Positions 7,147 to 47,523 of a stretch of 60,871 nucleotides of DNA are shown piece by piece; within the stretch, counting starts at the first letter, position 1; each line of letters opens with the position of its first letter. This stretch comes from a virus. The notes under the pieces are model-generated. The model searched no databases. It was not told the DNA's origin and was given only the letters and a program-made list of their open reading frames with translations. The translations under genes were made by a program, and so were the position numbers. The stretch is from the IMG/VR virus record IMGVR_UViG_3300020138_000001, positions 1-60,871 of that record; one strand, given 5' to 3'.

Positions 7147-7812
7147 GTGAGCAGACCCGCTATTCCGAAGATCATGCATAAAATTTGGATCGGCAACCCG
7201 ATGCCGTCCCACCTTCAGGCGAACTGTCTCCGATGGCAGGAAATGCATCCGGACTGGCAGTTCAAGCTGTGGACAGAGCCGCAGATTGACGGCATGCATC
7301 TCCAGAACCGCGCGCTTTACGATCAAGCTGAGAAACTGGTCCCGAGAGACGCCGTCGAACAGTTCCGGGCCGACATCGTTCGGTACGAAGTGTTGCTGGA
7401 GCACGGTGGCATGTATTCCGACGTGGACACGTACCCTCTCCGAAGAATCGATCCGGCCCTTGAGGGTCACGATGAGTTCGCGGCGTACGAAGATCAACGA
7501 TGGATCGGAAACACCTACATCGGCGTCGTTCCGAACCACCCCATCATGCGCACACTCGTTTCGGACTTGCCCGCAAACGTGACAAGGCAGCGCGGAAGTC
7601 GTCCGAACAAGTTGAGCGGACCGCAGTACCTCACTCCGGTGTGGCGAAGGTTCGGCGGATACGTAGCCCCGCAACGTTCGTGGTATCCGTACTCGTACAC
7701 GGACGTCAAGCGCGGCACCGTGCCAGAAGTTTTCGACACGGCAGTTTACGCAGTGCACTCATGGGATCACACGAAGAGAGTCATGGCGGCGCGAGCGGAC
7801 AGGGAGCACTAG
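7147..7812 (+). CDS. Glycosyltransferase with a DXD sugar-binding region (Gly_transf_sug/GT32-like)
   Basis: IPKIMHKIWIG...RADIVRYEVLLEHGGMYSDVDTYPL is the typical N-terminal and DXD signature. Confidence 0.75.
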   Translation: MSRPAIPKIMHKIWIGNPMPSHLQANCLRWQEMHPDWQFKLWTEPQIDGMHLQNRALYDQAEKLVPRDAVEQFRADIVRYEVLLEHGGMYSDVDTYPLRRIDPALEGHDEFAAYEDQRWIGNTYIGVVPNHPIMRTLVSDLPANVTRQRGSRPNKLSGPQYLTPVWRRFGGYVAPQRSWYPYSYTDVKRGTVPEVFDTAVYAVHSWDHTKRVMAARADREH

Positions 7813-9092
7813 TGCTGAGCTTCGATGATCTTTCTAGTCTGGACGGATTGATCTCCAGAGGCGTTGGAGAGCTGTTGCACAACTACGCGGCATGCGTTCC
7901 AGCAGATCAAGCTATCGTAGAGCTGGGATCGTACCGTGGCAAATCCACGTGCTACCTTGCTACCGGTTCGAGTATCGGGCACCGGGCACCAGTGTTCGCC
8001 GTGGATGCCTGGTCTGAGGCTGTGTCGACGTGGCGCAACCGCGTCATGGACCGCCTTCCGTCTCCGGAGTTTGAAGATTTTCAGGCTCAAGTGGCACTCG
8101 CCGGGATGACGGAGATGGTCACTCCGATACAGTCGGATACGGTGAAGGCGTCTGCACAATGGAGCACGGTTGGCGGAAACCGCACAATCGGCCTACTCTA
8201 CATCGACGGCGATCATCATCATGAAGCCGTCATGGCAGATTTCCGAGCGTGGCGGCCATTTCTCGCAGACGATGCACTGATCGTGTTTGACGACTACGAC
8301 ACTCCGACGAATCCCGGAGTCCTGACCGCCGTGCGGCTACTCGAACAGCGGGATGAGATCAGGAATCTAGAAAAACATGAGGGTCGACTAGGTCTATGCA
8401 ACCCGGGGAAGCGACCGCTACGTCTTTCAGCGTCGATCATGGCGCACCCGACTCGGCGAGAATCTGCGGAGGAACTTCAATCGCAGCTTGATCGACCGGC
8501 CCCCATCATCTACGACCAGGAAGCAATTCCATCTGCGGACCCCCGACAGCGCTGGAAGGTTGGTGCTGAGTGCTGGGCGACGCACGAGGATCGTGCTGAT
8601 TGGCACGTAGTGATTCAGGACGACGCGGTGCCTTGCGCGGACATGCTTGCTGGGCTTGAGATGGGATTGAACGTTCTCGGTTCCGAAGGCTTCGTGTCCG
8701 CGTTCGTAGGTCGTGGGAAGCCGTCGCATCATCACGTACGCAAGGCCATTCGGCACGCCCTTGCGAAGGATCATGCCTGGATGTCGCTTCGCTCGCTTGC
8801 GTGGGGTGTAGCCATCGCTGCGCCTACGAGCACCATTCCGGATATGCTGGAATGGTGTTCTCATCCCGAGCGCGAAGATATGAACTACGATAAACGAATT
8901 GGAATCTACTACCGAGATGTTCTCCGCTGGAGAACTTGGCACCCGATTCCAAGTCTCGTAGAGCATCGCGCACTGCCCTCACTCGTTGGGCATGACAGCT
9001 CGGAGAGAGATTCTTTCATGCACTACGAAGGTTCAGCGCTCGACATCGATTGGAACCGAACGCCGCCTTCGGGACTGGCGGTAGGCTTGTGA
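7812..9092 (+). CDS. Class I SAM-dependent methyltransferase (Methyltransf_24-like) fused to a GT-A-like glycosyltransferase domain
   Basis: GTG overlaps the upstream TAG (tagtg). N-terminal LGSYRGKST...LLYIDGDHHHEAV...IVFDDY. The C-terminal domain (about 8424..9092) is a clear paralogue of 9685..10491. Confidence 0.7.
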   Translation: MLSFDDLSSLDGLISRGVGELLHNYAACVPADQAIVELGSYRGKSTCYLATGSSIGHRAPVFAVDAWSEAVSTWRNRVMDRLPSPEFEDFQAQVALAGMTEMVTPIQSDTVKASAQWSTVGGNRTIGLLYIDGDHHHEAVMADFRAWRPFLADDALIVFDDYDTPTNPGVLTAVRLLEQRDEIRNLEKHEGRLGLCNPGKRPLRLSASIMAHPTRRESAEELQSQLDRPAPIIYDQEAIPSADPRQRWKVGAECWATHEDRADWHVVIQDDAVPCADMLAGLEMGLNVLGSEGFVSAFVGRGKPSHHHVRKAIRHALAKDHAWMSLRSLAWGVAIAAPTSTIPDMLEWCSHPEREDMNYDKRIGIYYRDVLRWRTWHPIPSLVEHRALPSLVGHDSSERDSFMHYEGSALDIDWNRTPPSGLAVGL

Positions 9093-25918: not shown

Positions 25919-26266
25919 CTACACCATGATCGATACCGTGAGAGCGATTATGATTGCGCAGGTTATGAAGTTCTTGAGCGCGTCCATCGGCTGGTACTTC
26001 TTGGGAGCATCGTGCATGTGCGGCAACCGCAGTACCCACCCTCCCCACATCACCGCAGGGATGCCGATCCACCCGACCACATCCCAGGCGCTCTCCGGGG
26101 CCCACGTGAGCGCTACGCACACTGTGATCGTCCCGTACAGGAACGCTCCCGTAGCGATCTCGTTTCGCCGGTTATCGCCTTTGGGCGTCTGTCCGATCAC
26201 TACGAATCCGTACGCCCCTGACAGGAGCATTAGGAAAATCAGTATCAATTGCCAGGCCAGCGCCAT
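25919..26266 (-). CDS. Membrane protein (about 4 TM)
   Basis: 115 aa, hydrophobic throughout. ATG after acgacgaaagga. It lies just downstream of the tRNA array. Confidence 0.6.
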   Translation of the reverse strand: MALAWQLILIFLMLLSGAYGFVVIGQTPKGDNRRNEIATGAFLYGTITVCVALTWAPESAWDVVGWIGIPAVMWGGWVLRLPHMHDAPKKYQPMDALKNFITCAIIIALTVSIMV

Positions 26267-26293
26267 TACTCATCCTTTCGTCGTAGGTCATAG

Positions 26294-26364
26294 AGGCGTG
26301 AACGGGAGTCGAACCCGTCTAACTGGATTTGCAGTCCAGTACCTAACCGCTCGGTCATCACGCC
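26294..26364 (-). tRNA. tRNA-Cys (GCA)
   Basis: Hand fold: acceptor ggcgtga/tcacgcc, T-loop ttcgact, anticodon loop ct-GCA-aa. No encoded CCA. Confidence 0.8.
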
Positions 26365-26483
26365 GTAACGCCGGTAGGCAGGGTTCCCGTGGTCTCGTCA
26401 ACGCCTGGCCGGGCTCTAAGATCGCGGGGCCTTGAGGCTCCGGCGGGCGGCCCCGGGGAGTCTAGAACTCCGGAGCCTTACCG

Positions 26484-26556
26484 TGGACCGTGTCGGATTC
26501 GAACCGACAACCCTCTGATTGCAAATCAGACGCTCTACCATTGGAGCTAACAGCCC
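26484..26556 (-). tRNA. tRNA-Ala (UGC)
   Basis: Acceptor gggctgt/acggtcc with G3:U70, T-loop ttcgaat, anticodon loop tt-TGC-aa. Confidence 0.8.
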
Positions 26557-26645
26557 GTGCGCCGCATGGGAGGACATGGGAGCGACATCCCCACGGGTCG
26601 GAACTTACCCCCGACCATACACACCGTGCACAGCGTGCGTATCCG

Positions 26646-26718: not shown

Positions 26719-26719
26719 G

Positions 26720-26792
26720 TGCAGCATCCGGGAATCGAACCCGGGTCTATGAGCCTGAAGCTCATCGCATTGCCCATTCATGCTGATGCCGC
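26720..26792 (-). tRNA. tRNA with anticodon UCA (opal-suppressor-like or UGA-reading)
   Basis: 73 nt, class I. Acceptor gcggcat/atgctgc, D stem gcat/atgc, perfect anticodon stem atgag/ctcat, loop ct-TCA-gg, T arm ccggg-ttcgatt-cccgg, A73. Confidence 0.65.
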
Positions 26793-45122: not shown

Positions 45123-45198
45123 ACTCCGCAGACGATGACGGGGGTACCCGCTTGCGGGGCGCTCCGGGGGTCGTGTATATTCGAATCATGCGCCGCTC

Positions 45199-45416
45199 GG
45201 AGTGACGCGTTTCGGTTACTTCAGGGTTCGACTCCCAACATCACGCATGGTGCCGTGATGCTCATCGAAAGGTGAGGGCAAGCGATCCGAGACCAACCGG
45301 ATTCGAGCGGCGGTAATACAGCGTTGAGCAGTCGTAACGGCGACACGCTCATCAGAAGGTTTCTGATTCGTACCGGGAATCTTCGATCACTGGGCTTCGG
45401 CCCGGTGATGCTGGGC
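45199..45416 (+). ncRNA. Structured non-coding region, first copy of the GGAGTGA-N-TTCGGTTACTTC motif (possible Y-RNA-like RNA or leader)
   Basis: No credible ORF. Motif at 45199..45222, a partial T-loop-like gggttcgactccc, and hairpin atcactgggc-ttcg-gcccggtgat at its end. Confidence 0.3.
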
Positions 45417-45605
45417 GGAGTGAAGATTTCGGTTACTTCAACGGAAACCGACGGTTGCGGGTTCGAATCCCGTCCCATGACAGTGTCATGCGGTAGCTCA
45501 AATGGCAGAGCTTCGGTAAAAATGCGCCGAGATCGATGTGATTCGCCCAGCACTAAAATTTCACACCCTCCGGTGTGACGCGTGGGGATACTTCACCTGT
45601 TTTTG
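45417..45605 (+). ncRNA. YrlA-type Y RNA candidate with a permuted tRNA-like module
   Basis: 5' ggagtgaag pairs with 3' cttcacc and is followed by a tgttttt run. T arm 45457..45473 (gcggg-ttcgaat-cccgt), acceptor-like hairpin 45476..45490, D arm 45496..45511 (gctc-aaatggca-gagc). Confidence 0.5.
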
Positions 45606-45656
45606 CAAACTGGTCCCAAACGCCCCGCGCAACGTGAATCGGAGGATGCACAAGCA

Positions 45657-45781
45657 GTGTGCGGAGTGACGAGTTCGGTTACTTCGCCTATTAAGCGAGA
45701 GGTTGCGGGTTCGAATCCCGCTCGCTGGCTTCGGTTGGCGGTAGCTCAATGGTAGAGCGCTACATTTCCGCACTCATTTTG
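45657..45781 (+). ncRNA. YrlA-type Y RNA candidate with a permuted tRNA-like module
   Basis: Terminal stem gtgcgga (45659) / tccgcac (45767) followed by tcatttt. T arm 45705..45721, acceptor-like stem closed by a UUCG loop at 45723..45740, D arm 45744..45758. Confidence 0.5.
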
Positions 45782-45813
45782 ATTCGCGCACTGCTTGTGA
45801 TGTCCTCCGGAAG

Positions 45814-47523
45814 ATGAGAGAAGAGGACACATTGACGAAGTTCAACAAGGCGCGACAGGGTACGACGCCTAGATCCCCCATCGCCAGCGCAACGCAAGCG
45901 CGGTTCCAGACTGCTGAAGGCGCGCAGGGATTCAAGCGCTCCGCTCAGGGAGAGTTGTTCGTACTGGGTTCGGGCCGATTCTTCGGAGAGGCATCGTTCT
46001 ACGAGTCGGCGCACGACGGGGCCGACCGATTCCGCACGCTCGTTCATGAAGTCGCGTTGAGTAATCCCGAGTGGCTTGTGCGGTTCCTGAAGTGGCTTCG
46101 AACGGAAGCCAACATCCGCACGGCCGCGATTGTTGGTGCTGTTGAGTACGTGCGCGCCATGCAGCGCCCGGAGGCTGCCGATGCCGTCGCCATCCGCGAC
46201 GGCGTGTGCCGAAGCGAGATCACGCCGCGCGCCGTGGTGCGTTCCGTCCTCCAGCGCGCCGATGAGCCCGGCGAGATGATCGCTTACTACCTCCAGCGTT
46301 ACGGCCGCTCGATTCCGCATGCGATGAAGCGAGGCATTGCCGACGCCATCACCGGAATCAGAACCGGCCGAGACCCGCTGTACTCCGAGTACAGCGTGCT
46401 GAAGTACGATACCCCTTCGCACGGAGTGCGTTTCGGGGACGTGGTGGAGCTGGTGTGCCCGGCAACAGTGCACCCATCGATTCGTGGAACGGATCAGGGA
46501 AATCTGATCAAGCACGTCATCGATCGTCGTCACGGCCGCGACGAGATTCCCGAAGTTTTCGACATGCTCACCGACAACGCGCAGATTCGCGCCCACGCGG
46601 CGCGGTACCCTGCGACCCTGCTCGATCCCGAACGTCTCAAGGCGGCCGGGCTCACGTGGGAAGACGCGCTATCGCTCGGCGGGTCGAAGCTCGACAAGCG
46701 CAAGCTGTGGGAATCGCTGATCGATGCCGATGCGCTCGGTTACATGGCACTGTTGCGCAACCTGCGGGCGTTCGATGAGGCGGGCGTCTCGGTCTACCAT
46801 GCGGCTAAGGTGGCATCGATCCTGAGAAACCCTCATCGCGTGCGGAAGGCGCGACAACTGCCGTTTCGGTTCTTCACCGCCGCCAAGGAAGCGACCGCTC
46901 CGCGATGGGCTCACGCGCTCGAACAGGCGTTGAACATTTCCACGGAGAACATTCCGGAGTTGCCGGGACGAACGCTGGTCCTGGTAGACACGTCGGGGTC
47001 GATGCAGTGGACGAACCTGTCAGCACGTTCGGGGGTCAGCTTGGTTGACACGGCGGCGCTGTTCGGCGTCGCGTTGTCGATGCACGCTGCTGATGTGGAC
47101 CTGTACGGGTTCGCAGACAGCGTGTTCAAGGCGCAGGTGTCGAAGGGCGGTTCAGTGCTTCGTCAGACGGAGAAGATGACGGCCCGCGTAGGTACGGCCG
47201 GGAACGGTACGCGGATTGCGGAGAGCTTGAAGCGGACGTTCCGAGGACATGACCGCGTCGTGATCTTCACGGACATGCAGACGATGCCGGACGACGGCAC
47301 AATGCCGTACTACGCGTACCACGTGGGGAACGTGAGCACGGCGGTACCGCCCAATGTGCCGATTTACGCATGGAACCTCGCAGGGTACGAAGCGTCGATG
47401 ATGCCCACCGGGTCGGACAACCGGCATGAGTTCGGCGGGTTCTCGGACTCGGCCTTCTCGACCATGCAGACGCTCGAAGCCGGTCGGGACGGGCGTTGGC
47501 CCTGGGAAGCATCGAAGGGGTAG
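45814..47523 (+). CDS. rsr: Ro60 orthologue (Rsr): TROVE domain plus a C-terminal vWA domain
   Basis: 569 aa. The N-terminus has TROVE-like FYESAHDG...WLVRFLKWLRTEANIR, and the C-terminus has the MIDAS motif LVLVDTSGSMQ. Confidence 0.8.
   Translation: MREEDTLTKFNKARQGTTPRSPIASATQARFQTAEGAQGFKRSAQGELFVLGSGRFFGEASFYESAHDGADRFRTLVHEVALSNPEWLVRFLKWLRTEANIRTAAIVGAVEYVRAMQRPEAADAVAIRDGVCRSEITPRAVVRSVLQRADEPGEMIAYYLQRYGRSIPHAMKRGIADAITGIRTGRDPLYSEYSVLKYDTPSHGVRFGDVVELVCPATVHPSIRGTDQGNLIKHVIDRRHGRDEIPEVFDMLTDNAQIRAHAARYPATLLDPERLKAAGLTWEDALSLGGSKLDKRKLWESLIDADALGYMALLRNLRAFDEAGVSVYHAAKVASILRNPHRVRKARQLPFRFFTAAKEATAPRWAHALEQALNISTENIPELPGRTLVLVDTSGSMQWTNLSARSGVSLVDTAALFGVALSMHAADVDLYGFADSVFKAQVSKGGSVLRQTEKMTARVGTAGNGTRIAESLKRTFRGHDRVVIFTDMQTMPDDGTMPYYAYHVGNVSTAVPPNVPIYAWNLAGYEASMMPTGSDNRHEFGGFSDSAFSTMQTLEAGRDGRWPWEASKG

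What the first reader, a model, noticed from the sequence alone, without database searches (positions are those of the whole stretch)
45190..45813. About 600-nt non-coding locus with four GGAGTGA..TTCGGTTACTTC-type motifs and two circularly permuted tRNA-like modules (Y-RNA candidates)
There is no credible ORF in this region. The motif GGAGTGA(C/A)G-N-TTCGGTTACTTC occurs at 45199, 45417 and 45663, and a variant GGTGTGACGCGTGGGGATACTTC occurs at 45572. Two segments each contain a canonical T arm (gcggg-TTCGAAT-cccg[t/c] at 45457 and 45705). Each T arm is followed by an acceptor-like hairpin, one of them closed by a UUCG loop (45723..45740), and then a canonical D arm (gctc-aa(a)tgg(c/t)a-gagc at 45496 and 45744). 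The order is therefore T arm, acceptor, D arm, which is the reverse of a real tRNA. This is what would be expected if the 5' and 3' ends emerge from the anticodon side, as in YrlA-type bacterial Y RNAs. Both candidates close with a terminal helix (gtgaag/cttcac and gtgcgga/tccgcac) and a short T run. The locus lies immediately upstream of a Ro60 orthologue.
Basis: partly seen in the sequence, partly recalled or inferred. Interest (0 to 1): 0.7.

Follow-up and report, generated by a model that had tools for sequence, protein, structure and literature searches.

The report
Phage Y RNA array beside Ro60
The roughly 620 bases just upstream of this phage's Ro60 gene encode four tandem Y-RNA-like small RNAs, two of which carry a circularly permuted tRNA-like domain; this is a new example of an RNA type already described in bacteria and a few phages.

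Summary
The motif GTGAMG-N5-6-GGWTACTTC occurs four times in the 60.9-kb window. All four copies lie at 45198-45686 on the + strand, and 100 shuffles gave none.

Each copy is the 5' half of a separate module with the same architecture: outer stem, internal loop, inner stem, WUACUUC, variable central domain, then the two 3' strands. The modules are M1 45190-45313, M2 45408-45553, M4 45563-45649 and M3 45640-45809.

M2 and M3 contain a T arm, a closed 7-8 bp acceptor-like hairpin, a UA dinucleotide and a D arm. Rfam YrlA matches both, but below its gathering score (36 and 33.6 bits against 69).

Six related phage contigs and one actinobacterial chromosome have the same array upstream of Ro60. 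Covariation supports the shared stems, the T and acceptor stems, and the tRNA Levitt pair (19 of 19).

The proposed terminal helices are not conserved. The T run lies inside M4 and is not a terminator. There are four modules, not two.

Bacterial and phage Y RNAs next to Ro60 were reported in 2014 and 2025, so this is a new member of a known kind. No expression or binding data exist.

The parts
45152..45181 (+). Promoter-like element: TTGCGG (45152-57), an 18-nt spacer, then TATATT (45176-81). The predicted transcription start is about 45188-45190, at the first base of M1.
   Evidence: TGTATAT.. is invariant in all 7 aligned loci; coordinates checked. The tool's sigma-70 scan did not list it. 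Its function is inferred.
45190..45313 (+). Module M1, a Y-RNA-like module without a D arm. Outer stem 45190-45201 with 45302-45313. Motif 45198-45222. T-loop-like GGGTTCGACTCCC at 45224-36. Hairpins at 45239-60 and 45261-76. Inner-stem 3' strand at 45287-93.
   Evidence: MFE -55.5 kcal/mol, z -3.6. Stems are kept with compensatory changes in relatives. ACUUCAGGGUUCGACU matches 15 of 16 bases of the RNA targeted by the M. smegmatis YrlB probe, ACUUCAAGGUUCGACU.
45314..45407 (+). Hairpin-rich spacer that is not conserved. Relatives L002, L003, L005 and L007 carry a fifth module (Mx) in this position. L013 and L006 lack Mx; L013 has a short, different spacer.
   Evidence: Alignment A1, sequences, module table.
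45408..45553 (+). Module M2, YrlA-type. Outer stem 45408-19 with 45542-53. Loop GTGAA. Inner stem 45425-32 with 45527-34. TTACTTC at 45433-39. T arm 45457-73. Closed acceptor-like hairpin 45474-93. UA at 45494-95. D arm 45496-511.
   Evidence: Rfam YrlA 36 bits, E=4.7e-6. MFE -58 kcal/mol, z -3.4. Covariation.
45563..45649 (+). Module M4, a short Y-RNA-like long hairpin. Outer stem 45565-74 with 45638-47. Loop GTGAC. Inner stem 45580-87 with 45623-30. ATACTTC at 45588-94. Small central hairpin CCUGUUU/AAACUGG, which contains the T run. There is also a conserved alternative local hairpin, 45561-67 with 45572-78.
   Evidence: MFE -35.3 kcal/mol, z -3.6, with exactly this architecture. The RNAalifold consensus of 7 loci gives both stems. 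Pair counts.
45640..45809 (+). Module M3, YrlA-type with a long basal stem. Basal extension 45640-53 with 45795-809. Outer stem 45654-65 with 45783-94. Loop GTGAC. Inner stem 45671-78 with 45768-75. TTACTTC at 45679-85. Anticodon-arm-like V hairpin at 45682-99 with loop CUAUUAA. T arm 45705-21. Acceptor-like hairpin 45722-41. UA at 45742-43. D arm 45744-58.
   Evidence: Rfam YrlA 33.6 bits, E=2.2e-5. MFE -83.6 kcal/mol, z -5.9. Covariation. ARAGORN's tRNA-Asn(att) at 45657-45730 covers only the 5' part of this module.
45832..47523 (+). Ro60 (Rsr) orthologue. The probable start is TTG 45832 (MTKFN...), preceded by the Shine-Dalgarno (SD) sequence GAGGAC at 45823-28. The mechanical ORF starts at ATG 45814.
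   Evidence: TROVE and vWA domains, PHROG 850, PDB 9KOP/9L5Y E=3e-23. Relatives start at ATGACGAAGTTCAAC, which aligns with TTGACGAAGTTCAAC here.

Best explanation
The locus is a tandem array of four Y RNA genes of the bacterial YrlA/YrlB kind, encoded by a tailed phage directly upstream of, and on the same strand as, its own Ro60 gene.

Shown here: all four modules share a covariation-supported two-part stem formed by their 5' and 3' ends. The 5' strand of that stem carries a conserved CG(G/A)(A/U)GUG motif. This sits at the position of the CGAA/GNCGAAN0-1G motif that earlier work linked to Ro60 binding. Two modules (M2, M3) present a circularly permuted tRNA-like domain with tRNA tertiary signatures. 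M1 presents a T-loop-like element and M4 a small hairpin.

Inferred from the published systems named below:
- The array is transcribed from the conserved promoter-like element at 45152-45181, probably as one precursor together with the Ro60 mRNA, and is then cut into individual RNAs.
- Each RNA binds the phage Ro60 ring through the conserved stem.
- The variable distal domain recruits a host effector. Candidates are polynucleotide phosphorylase, as in the D. radiodurans and Thermus phage phiLo complexes, or a tRNA-binding enzyme that recognises the tRNA elbow.
- The outcome would be redirected host RNA decay or quality control during infection.
- Because the acceptor-like stems are 7-8 bp, as in M. 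smegmatis YrlA, cleavage by RNase P and CCA addition are plausible.
For: Motif: confined to this locus, 4 observed against 0 expected.

Family match: Rfam YrlA is the only family matching in 30000-60871, at exactly the two T-acceptor-D segments, with E=1.7e-4 and 8.1e-4. On the 851-nt region the E-values are 4.7e-6 and 2.2e-5.

Conservation: the same array lies upstream of Ro60 in six phage contigs whose Ro60 is 60-91% identical. It also occurs in Gordonia, Streptomyces and Arthrobacter phages and in the Planobispora rosea chromosome.

Shared stem, 28 modules: 89% of cells paired against 67% in shuffles and 28-41% when partners are slid; 17 of 22 pairs change on both sides.

tRNA-like core, 19 modules: T stem 100% paired; all 7 acceptor-like pairs covary; the Levitt 15:48 pair is kept 19 of 19 times (A:U 11, G:C 8); the UA linker is invariant.

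Folding z-scores are -3.4 to -5.9.

Neighbouring gene: it is Ro60. The window is a tailed-phage genome with portal, major head, tape measure, terminase and DNA polymerase genes.

Literature: YrlA RNAs lie within 4 kb of Ro60 on the same strand in 254 bacterial species and 22 phages. M. smegmatis YrlA and YrlB lie upstream of rsr, come from one precursor and are bound by Rsr (PMC4201824). A YrlA crystal structure shows the tRNA fold (bioRxiv 10.1101/312249). Thermus phage phiLo Ro60 binds two Y-like RNAs encoded upstream of it, and these together with host PNPase form ternary complexes (PMC12135203).
Against: Both Rfam YrlA scores (36 and 33.6 bits) are well below the family's gathering score of 69.

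The motif in this window reads CGGAGUG or CGGUGUG rather than the published CGAA. The canonical CGAAGUG is seen only in relatives.

There is no expression, processing or binding evidence for this phage.

The 3' partner segments used for the stem count were located partly by a complementarity search, which inflates the percentage paired. The modules are also paralogues and orthologues, so they are not independent events.

M1 and M4 have no tRNA-like domain. Calling them Y RNAs rests on the shared stem and, for M1, on a 16-nt resemblance to M. smegmatis YrlB.
Confidence: 0.87

Rival explanations
1. The structured region is mainly a cis-acting leader of the Ro60 mRNA, with Ro60-binding sites used for autoregulation, rather than a source of stable trans-acting RNAs. 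In the specific form proposed here, folding of M4 and the long M3 basal stem compete for the same GGAGGA segment, and that competition decides whether an anti-SD sequence is free to block the Ro60 ribosome-binding site.
For: M3's basal stem ends 14 nt before the SD sequence, and no terminator lies between the array and Ro60. Four mutually exclusive helices are present in all 7 loci (L007's GUCCUC/GAGGAC is offset in alignment A1, so one search does not score it there). In thermodynamic models of all 7 loci, forcing the M4 fold costs 0.2-4.7 kcal/mol and raises the pairing probability of the SD sequence from 0.14-0.68 to 0.91-1.00.
Against: The evidence is purely computational. Complementarity between SD-like and anti-SD-like sequences is partly automatic. 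More distant Ro60 phages (VanLee, GiJojo) have different leaders. In M. smegmatis the homologous RNAs accumulate as stable Rsr-bound species. The idea does not exclude the main explanation.
Confidence: 0.12
2. The tRNA-like segments are decayed or tandem tRNA genes. In that case the T arm of one tRNA would be followed by the D arm of the next, with no Y RNA function.
For: ARAGORN calls a tRNA-Asn(att) at 45657-45730. The phage carries 29 tRNAs elsewhere. One regex hit in phage Atuin (L018 4314) is exactly such a junction between two real tRNAs.
Against: The Rfam tRNA model gives only 21.2 bits against a gathering score of 29, with no D arm. The acceptor-like element is a closed 18-20 nt hairpin, which leaves no room for two tRNA ends. 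The stems that flank the domain covary, as does the closed hairpin. The arrangement is conserved next to Ro60 in phages and in a bacterium.
Confidence: 0.02
3. The region encodes small proteins, as annotated over the homologous region of Gordonia phage Neville.
For: Stop-free stretches of up to 123 codons exist. Neville gp88-90 are annotated across its array.
Against: Such stretches occur in all six frames, as expected for GC-rich DNA. Similarity to relatives is limited to short patches in varying frames. Substitutions follow base-pairing, not codon structure.
Confidence: 0.01

Closest known systems
YrlA (Rfam RF02553; S. Typhimurium and M. smegmatis YrlA; Chen et al. 2014, PMC4201824; crystal structure 6CU1, bioRxiv 10.1101/312249)
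   Same: The 5'/3' stem carries a CGAA-type motif on its 5' strand, followed by YUAY (here UUAC). A T arm, closed acceptor-like stem, UA and D arm follow in that order. The Levitt pair is maintained by covariation. The RNA lies next to Ro60 on the same strand. The acceptor stem is 7-8 bp, as in M. smegmatis.
   Different: Scores are about half of Rfam's gathering threshold. The motif is CGGAGUG rather than GNCGAA(N)G. There are two YrlA-type copies per locus. M3 has an anticodon-arm-like V hairpin with loop CU-NNN-AA and a 24-bp basal stem extension.
M. smegmatis YrlB, and the 'long hairpin with small loop' Y RNAs (D. radiodurans Yrn2, S. Typhimurium YrlB)
   Same: M1 shares ACUUCA(A/G)GGUUCGACU, including the T-arm-like element, with the YrlB probe target. 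M4 is a long bulged hairpin with a small central region. Both are encoded in the same precursor region upstream of Ro60.
Thermus phage phiLo Yrl1 and Yrl2 with phage Ro60 (PMC12135203; PDB 9KOP, 9L5Y)
   Same: A phage-encoded Ro60 with Y-like RNAs encoded immediately upstream, recognised by a CGAA-type motif in a stem-bulge-stem. The Ro60 here matches 9KOP at E=3e-23.
   Different: Two RNAs there against four here. No tRNA-like domain is mentioned in the phiLo paper (0 occurrences of 'tRNA-like'). The Ro60 proteins are only about 26% identical.
Metazoan Y RNAs and D. radiodurans Yrn1
   Same: Modular design: the Ro60-binding stem is formed by the RNA ends and the effector-binding domain is distal. 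The 5' strand resembles GGUCCGA-type motifs. Several paralogous Y RNAs exist per genome.
   Different: The 3' strand is not conserved with metazoan Y RNAs. Metazoan Y RNAs have no tRNA-like module. Yrn1 has its T and D elements in a different orientation.
tRNA
   Same: T loop UUCGAAU, D loop with GG, U8-A9 equivalent, 15:48 pair, and a 7-bp acceptor-like stem.
   Different: The order is circularly permuted, the acceptor is closed by a loop, and there is no anticodon loop at the end of the stem. The tRNA covariance model falls below threshold.

Membership tests
YrlA (RF02553) | Score at or above Rfam's gathering threshold (69 bits) | tested here: not met
   36.0 bits at 45426-45536 and 33.6 bits at 45698-45761. 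All related phage and bacterial loci also score 30-48 bits.
YrlA (RF02553) | T arm, closed acceptor-like stem-loop and D arm in that order, joined by a UA dinucleotide | tested here: met
   The T stem is 100% paired in 19 modules, all 7 acceptor-like pairs covary, the UA is invariant, and the D stem GCUC/GAGC is invariant.
YrlA (RF02553) | Levitt-type 15:48 pair maintained by compensatory change, with a pyrimidine at the last variable-loop position | tested here: met
   19 of 19 modules: A15:U48 in 11 and G15:C48 in 8. Both window copies are A:U.
YrlA (RF02553) | GNCGAAN0-1G motif near the 5' end, in the stem formed with the 3' end | tested here: inconclusive
   The window has GGCGGAG (M2), UGCGGAG (M3) and CUCGGAG (M1), that is CGGA instead of CGAA, still paired to UUCG through G-U. 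Relatives have CGAAGUG at the homologous position.
YrlA (RF02553) | Conserved YUAY after the 5' stem strand | tested here: met
   UUAC or AUAC within the invariant UACUUC in all 28 modules.
YrlA (RF02553) | Encoded within 4 kb of Ro60 on the same strand | tested here: met
   The array ends at 45809 and Ro60 starts at 45832, both on the + strand.
Y RNA (general) | Long stem formed by pairing of the 5' and 3' ends | tested here: met
   Outer and inner stems: 89% of cells paired, 17 of 22 pairs changed on both sides, slid controls 28-41%. RNAalifold recovers them.
Y RNA (general) | Stable RNA bound by Ro60 in vivo | not testable with these tools
   Needs Northern blots or RNA-seq and Ro60 immunoprecipitation from infected cells.
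M. smegmatis YrlB-type | Sequence similarity to YrlB, including its T-arm-like element | tested here: inconclusive
   Only the 25-nt probe sequence was available. 15 of 16 nt are identical to M1 at 45218-45233.
tRNA (RF00005) | Cloverleaf with an anticodon arm and paired free acceptor ends, scoring above threshold | tested here: not met
   21.2 bits against 29, with no D arm aligned. The ARAGORN call at 45657-45730 covers the stem strand, V hairpin and T arm of M3.
Intrinsic terminator at the T run | GC-rich hairpin followed by a U run, conserved as a hairpin | tested here: not met
   The scan lists 45582-45606. However, 45580-87 pairs with 45623-30 in all relatives, and the U run pairs with AAACUGG.

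The most novel reading that the evidence does not exclude
The array may be more than a set of Ro60 adaptors. Module M4 could act as a Ro60-sensing switch. When Ro60 binds and stabilises the M4 fold, the GGAGGA segment (45641-46) would be withheld from the M3 basal stem. That would free the anti-SD sequence GUCCUCC (45802-08) to pair with the Ro60 SD sequence (45823-28), so the protein would shut off its own translation. A second speculative reading is that the anticodon-arm-like V hairpin of M3 and the two tRNA-like domains serve as decoys or adaptors for host tRNA-targeting enzymes, in a phage that carries 29 tRNAs.
Probability: 0.12. Interest if true: 0.65.

Novelty: new member of a known kind. 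Interest (0 to 1): 0.33.

Why it matters
The locus adds a well-supported, four-module Y RNA array to the few phage Ro60 systems described.

Every actinophage and actinobacterial copy examined here scores well below Rfam's YrlA threshold, so routine annotation misses these RNAs. In public records the homologous regions are annotated as 'tRNA-Arg' or as small hypothetical proteins.

The natural variation is useful. Seven loci each carry 4-5 paralogous modules, and the binding motif changes genome by genome: CGGAGUG, CGAAGUG, and CGAAGCG with a 3' bulge. This gives a ready comparative data set for mapping how Ro60 recognises its RNAs, and for building a better covariance model.

It does not change the current picture of what Y RNAs are.

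Tried and rejected
Local hairpin GAAGUG/UACUUC within the motif: it is 92% paired, but no pair changes on both sides. The A-to-U and U-to-C changes on the 5' side are not compensated there, whereas they are compensated by the distal 3' strand. Rejected.

The T run as a terminator: rejected.

Megablast of the locus against GenBank phages: no match. Blastn found only short tRNA-like patches.

Only one of the 120 loci inspected, Planobispora rosea L082, turned out to be a Y RNA locus, and M. smegmatis was not recovered.

Scan of viral contigs with the 24-nt motif: 76 of 86 loci had a single motif copy and no Ro60 hit, and are probably chance matches. The clearest real arrays were contigs already in hand plus two further contigs: 3300049138_000182 with five motif copies and 3300037258_000161 with two.

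Supplementary files of Chen et al. 2014 and the 2020 Annual Review were not available.

Search for RNA repair or tRNA-processing genes near the locus: none found with Pfam.

Full report
**Context.** The window is a tailed-phage genome segment. It encodes a portal protein, major head protein, tape measure protein, large terminase, DNA polymerase, helicase and primase, plus 29 tRNA genes at 26.3-29.9 kb on the minus strand.

The ORF at 45814-47523 is a Ro60 orthologue. Support comes from a Pfam TROVE match at E=3e-19 with weak vWA matches, PHROG 850 'RNA-binding protein' at E=9e-47, and PDB 9KOP/9L5Y, the Thermus phage phiLo Ro60, at E=3e-23. It is also 37-40% identical to the 'Ro-like RNA binding protein' of Streptomyces, Gordonia and Arthrobacter phages. 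Alignment with relatives puts the likely start at TTG 45832 (MTKFN...), behind GAGGAC.

**Checking the observation.** The pattern GTGAMG-N5-6-GGWTACTTC occurs four times in the window. All four lie between 45202 and 45685 on the + strand, and 100 dinucleotide-preserving shuffles gave none.

Rfam's YrlA model is the only family that matches between 30000 and 60871. It matches at 45426-45536 (36 bits) and 45698-45761 (33.6 bits). These E-values are significant, at 4.7e-6 and 2.2e-5 on the 851-nt region. Both scores are nonetheless far below the curated gathering score of 69, so the default scan of the window reported nothing here.

**What the motif is.** Six related phage contigs, with Ro60 60-91% identical, were fetched. 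All have the same region upstream of Ro60. Six are aligned with the window; L004 is the same as L003 over this region.

The alignment and a module-by-module dissection show that each motif copy is the 5' half of a separate module. The common plan has these parts, in order:
- outer-stem 5' strand ending in CG(A/G)(A/U);
- five-base loop G(U/C)GNN;
- inner-stem 5' strand ending in CGG;
- (U/A/C)U(A/C)CUUC;
- a variable central domain;
- inner-stem 3' strand beginning with CCG;
- a loop ending in GA;
- outer-stem 3' strand beginning with (U/A)UCG.

The window has four such modules: M1 45190-45313, M2 45408-45553, M4 45563-45649 and M3 45640-45809. Four relatives have a fifth module between M1 and M2. 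At that position the window has a non-conserved, hairpin-rich spacer.

**Covariation in the shared stem.** I tested 28 fixed-register stem constructs. Of these cells, 89% form standard pairs, against 67% in column shuffles and 28-41% when the partners are slid. Seventeen of 22 pairs show changes on both sides.

One caveat applies. The 3' partners were located partly by complementarity, although they were anchored by the conserved GA-(U/A)UCG and CCG. The sequences are also related paralogues and orthologues, so the counts overstate the number of independent events.

The competing idea is that GAAGUG pairs locally with UACUUC. It shows no compensated change, and the changes that do occur are uncompensated there. 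It is rejected.

They drop to 3-4 of 7 pairs, or carry uncompensated changes, in the others. The stems proposed here hold at 7-12 pairs throughout wherever alignment A1 is in register (the low L007 and L005 counts are register shifts, and the proper partners are given).

Single-sequence folding gives the proposed architecture, with z-scores of -3.6 (M1), -3.4 (M2), -3.6 (M4) and -5.9 (M3). The T run at 45600-45604 lies inside M4, where it pairs with AAACUGG. The hairpin listed by the terminator scan is replaced in all relatives by the M4 inner stem.

**The tRNA-like domains.** M2 and M3 each contain a 5-bp T stem with a UUCGAAU loop, a closed 18-20 nt hairpin, UA, and a GCUC/GAGC D arm whose loop contains GG.

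Nineteen such cores were compared, drawn from the window, its relatives, three published actinophages and Planobispora rosea. The T stem is always paired. All seven acceptor-like pairs covary, with 90% of cells paired. The nucleotide before the T stem covaries with the second D-loop nucleotide as A:U (11) or G:C (8), with no exception. This is the tRNA Levitt 15:48 pair.

These are the features that define YrlA in Chen et al. 2014 and in the YrlA crystal structure paper. The UUAC within the motif corresponds to their conserved YUAY, and CG(A/G)A corresponds to their CGAA. The window itself has CGGA, paired to UUCG through a G-U pair; relatives have the canonical CGAAGUG.

M1 lacks a D arm. It does carry a T-loop-like GGGUUCGACUCCC, and it shares 15 of 16 bases with the RNA targeted by the published M. 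smegmatis YrlB probe. M4 is a bulged long hairpin with a small central region, like the second class of bacterial Y RNAs described in that paper.

**Distribution.**
- The Planobispora rosea chromosome has three tandem modules of the same plan upstream of its Ro60 gene.
- Gordonia phages VanLee and Neville, Streptomyces phage GiJojo and Arthrobacter phage Atuin have sub-threshold YrlA matches and several (U/A)UACUUC-containing modules around their Ro60 genes.
- The exact motif is rare in IMG/VR. Besides contigs already in hand, only two further contigs show arrays.

**How it most likely works.** The shared stem, the tRNA-like fold and the linkage to Ro60 are shown here. The rest is inferred by analogy with published systems:
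- In M. smegmatis, YrlA and YrlB lie upstream of rsr, are processed from one precursor and are bound by Rsr. YrlA, with its 7-bp acceptor stem, is cut by RNase P and receives CCA.
- In D. radiodurans, Y RNA tethers Ro60 to PNPase.
- In Thermus phage phiLo, Ro60 binds two Y-like RNAs encoded upstream of it, and these together with host PNPase form ternary complexes.

I therefore propose the following sequence. Transcription starts at the conserved TTGCGG-18-TATATT element (45152-45181; TGTATAT.. is invariant in seven loci). The precursor is processed, possibly at the 24-bp M3 basal stem. All four RNAs bind the phage Ro60 through the conserved stem. Different host factors are recruited through the four different distal domains.

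**Rivals.**
- A purely cis-regulatory role for the region cannot be excluded. It is developed below as a hypothesis.
- Decayed or tandem tRNAs are excluded by the closed acceptor hairpin, the covarying flanking stems and the sub-threshold tRNA score.
- Coding potential is not supported.

**A possible switch.** Four mutually exclusive helices are present in all seven loci:
- A: a local hairpin, 45561-67 with 45572-78, which shows two compensatory events;
- B: the M4 outer stem;
- C: the extension of the M3 basal stem, 45640-46 with 45803-09;
- D: anti-SD GUCCUC 45802-07 with SD GAGGAC 45823-28.

In thermodynamic models of all seven loci, the state with helix C is the minimum, and the SD sequence is then paired with probability 0.14-0.68. 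Forcing helix B costs only 0.2-4.7 kcal/mol and raises that probability to 0.91-1.00. Ro60 binding to M4 could therefore repress Ro60 translation.

This is computational only. It is partly an automatic consequence of SD-like sequences, and it is not seen in more distant phages.

**Verdict.** Y RNAs next to Ro60 in bacteria and phages are established, so this is a new member of a known kind. Its practical value is for annotation and for studying Ro60-RNA recognition.

Noticed in passing
window 45657-45730; L015 1213-1284 (Gordonia phage VanLee); L016 1284-1358 (Streptomyces phage GiJojo): ARAGORN calls a tRNA-Asn(att) here. It also reproduces the GenBank-annotated tRNA-Arg(tct) and tRNA-Arg(cct) of VanLee and GiJojo at exactly the annotated coordinates. 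These calls cover the stem strand, V hairpin and T arm of Y-RNA modules just upstream of Ro60, and the Rfam tRNA model does not support them. They are probably mis-annotated Y RNAs.
   Followed up: partly
L017 963-1373 (Gordonia phage Neville gp88-gp90): Small hypothetical CDSs are annotated across the region that holds four UUACUUC modules and a YrlA match at 1254-1370 (44 bits). They are likely spurious ORFs over a Y RNA array.
   Followed up: partly
L007 (= L011) 2389-2972: In this one relative, every module has GAAGCG instead of GAAGUG and an extra base in the 3' strand (GAUCUCG, or GAUCACG in M4, instead of GAUUCG or GAAUCG). The U-to-C change turns a U-G wobble into C-G. A concerted change across all paralogues suggests gene conversion or co-evolution with that phage's Ro60. 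In L007 the M2 position also lacks the tRNA-like domain.
   Followed up: partly
window 45561-45578, 45638-45647, 45802-45828: Mutually exclusive conserved helices link the M4 fold, the M3 basal stem and an anti-SD/SD pair in front of Ro60. Thermodynamic models of seven loci show a consistent two-state behaviour.
   Followed up: partly
window 45682-45699 and homologues: The V hairpin of M3-type modules has a 7-nt loop of the form C-U-NNN-A-A (CUAUUAA, CUUUUAA, CUGUUAA, CUUCUAA), like a tRNA anticodon loop. The stem changes in a compensatory way between relatives. In the window it competes with a 4-bp helix that would close the tRNA-like junction; this was not resolved.
   Followed up: partly
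window 26719-26792 (minus strand): ARAGORN labels one of the 29 phage tRNAs as tRNA-SeC with anticodon UCA. Rfam tRNA scores it at 50.3 bits. It could be an opal-suppressor-type tRNA.
   Followed up: no
window 26022-26576 (minus strand): ARAGORN reports a permuted 'tmRNA*' that overlaps two tRNA genes. Rfam found no tmRNA at gathering threshold, so this is probably a false call.
   Followed up: no
L082 (Planobispora rosea NZ_BMQP01000011.1), minus strand 7450-7960: A bacterial chromosome carries three tandem modules of the same plan directly upstream of its Ro60 gene: one with a T arm but no canonical D arm, one YrlB-like and one YrlA-type. The motif there reads CCCGGUGCG...(U/A)UACUUC.
   Followed up: partly
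L205/L155 (IMGVR_UViG_3300049138_000182) and L167 (IMGVR_UViG_3300037258_000161): Two further viral contigs, of 70 kb and 108 kb, with more distant Ro60 (about 43-46% identity), carry five and two copies of the motif next to Ro60.
   Followed up: no
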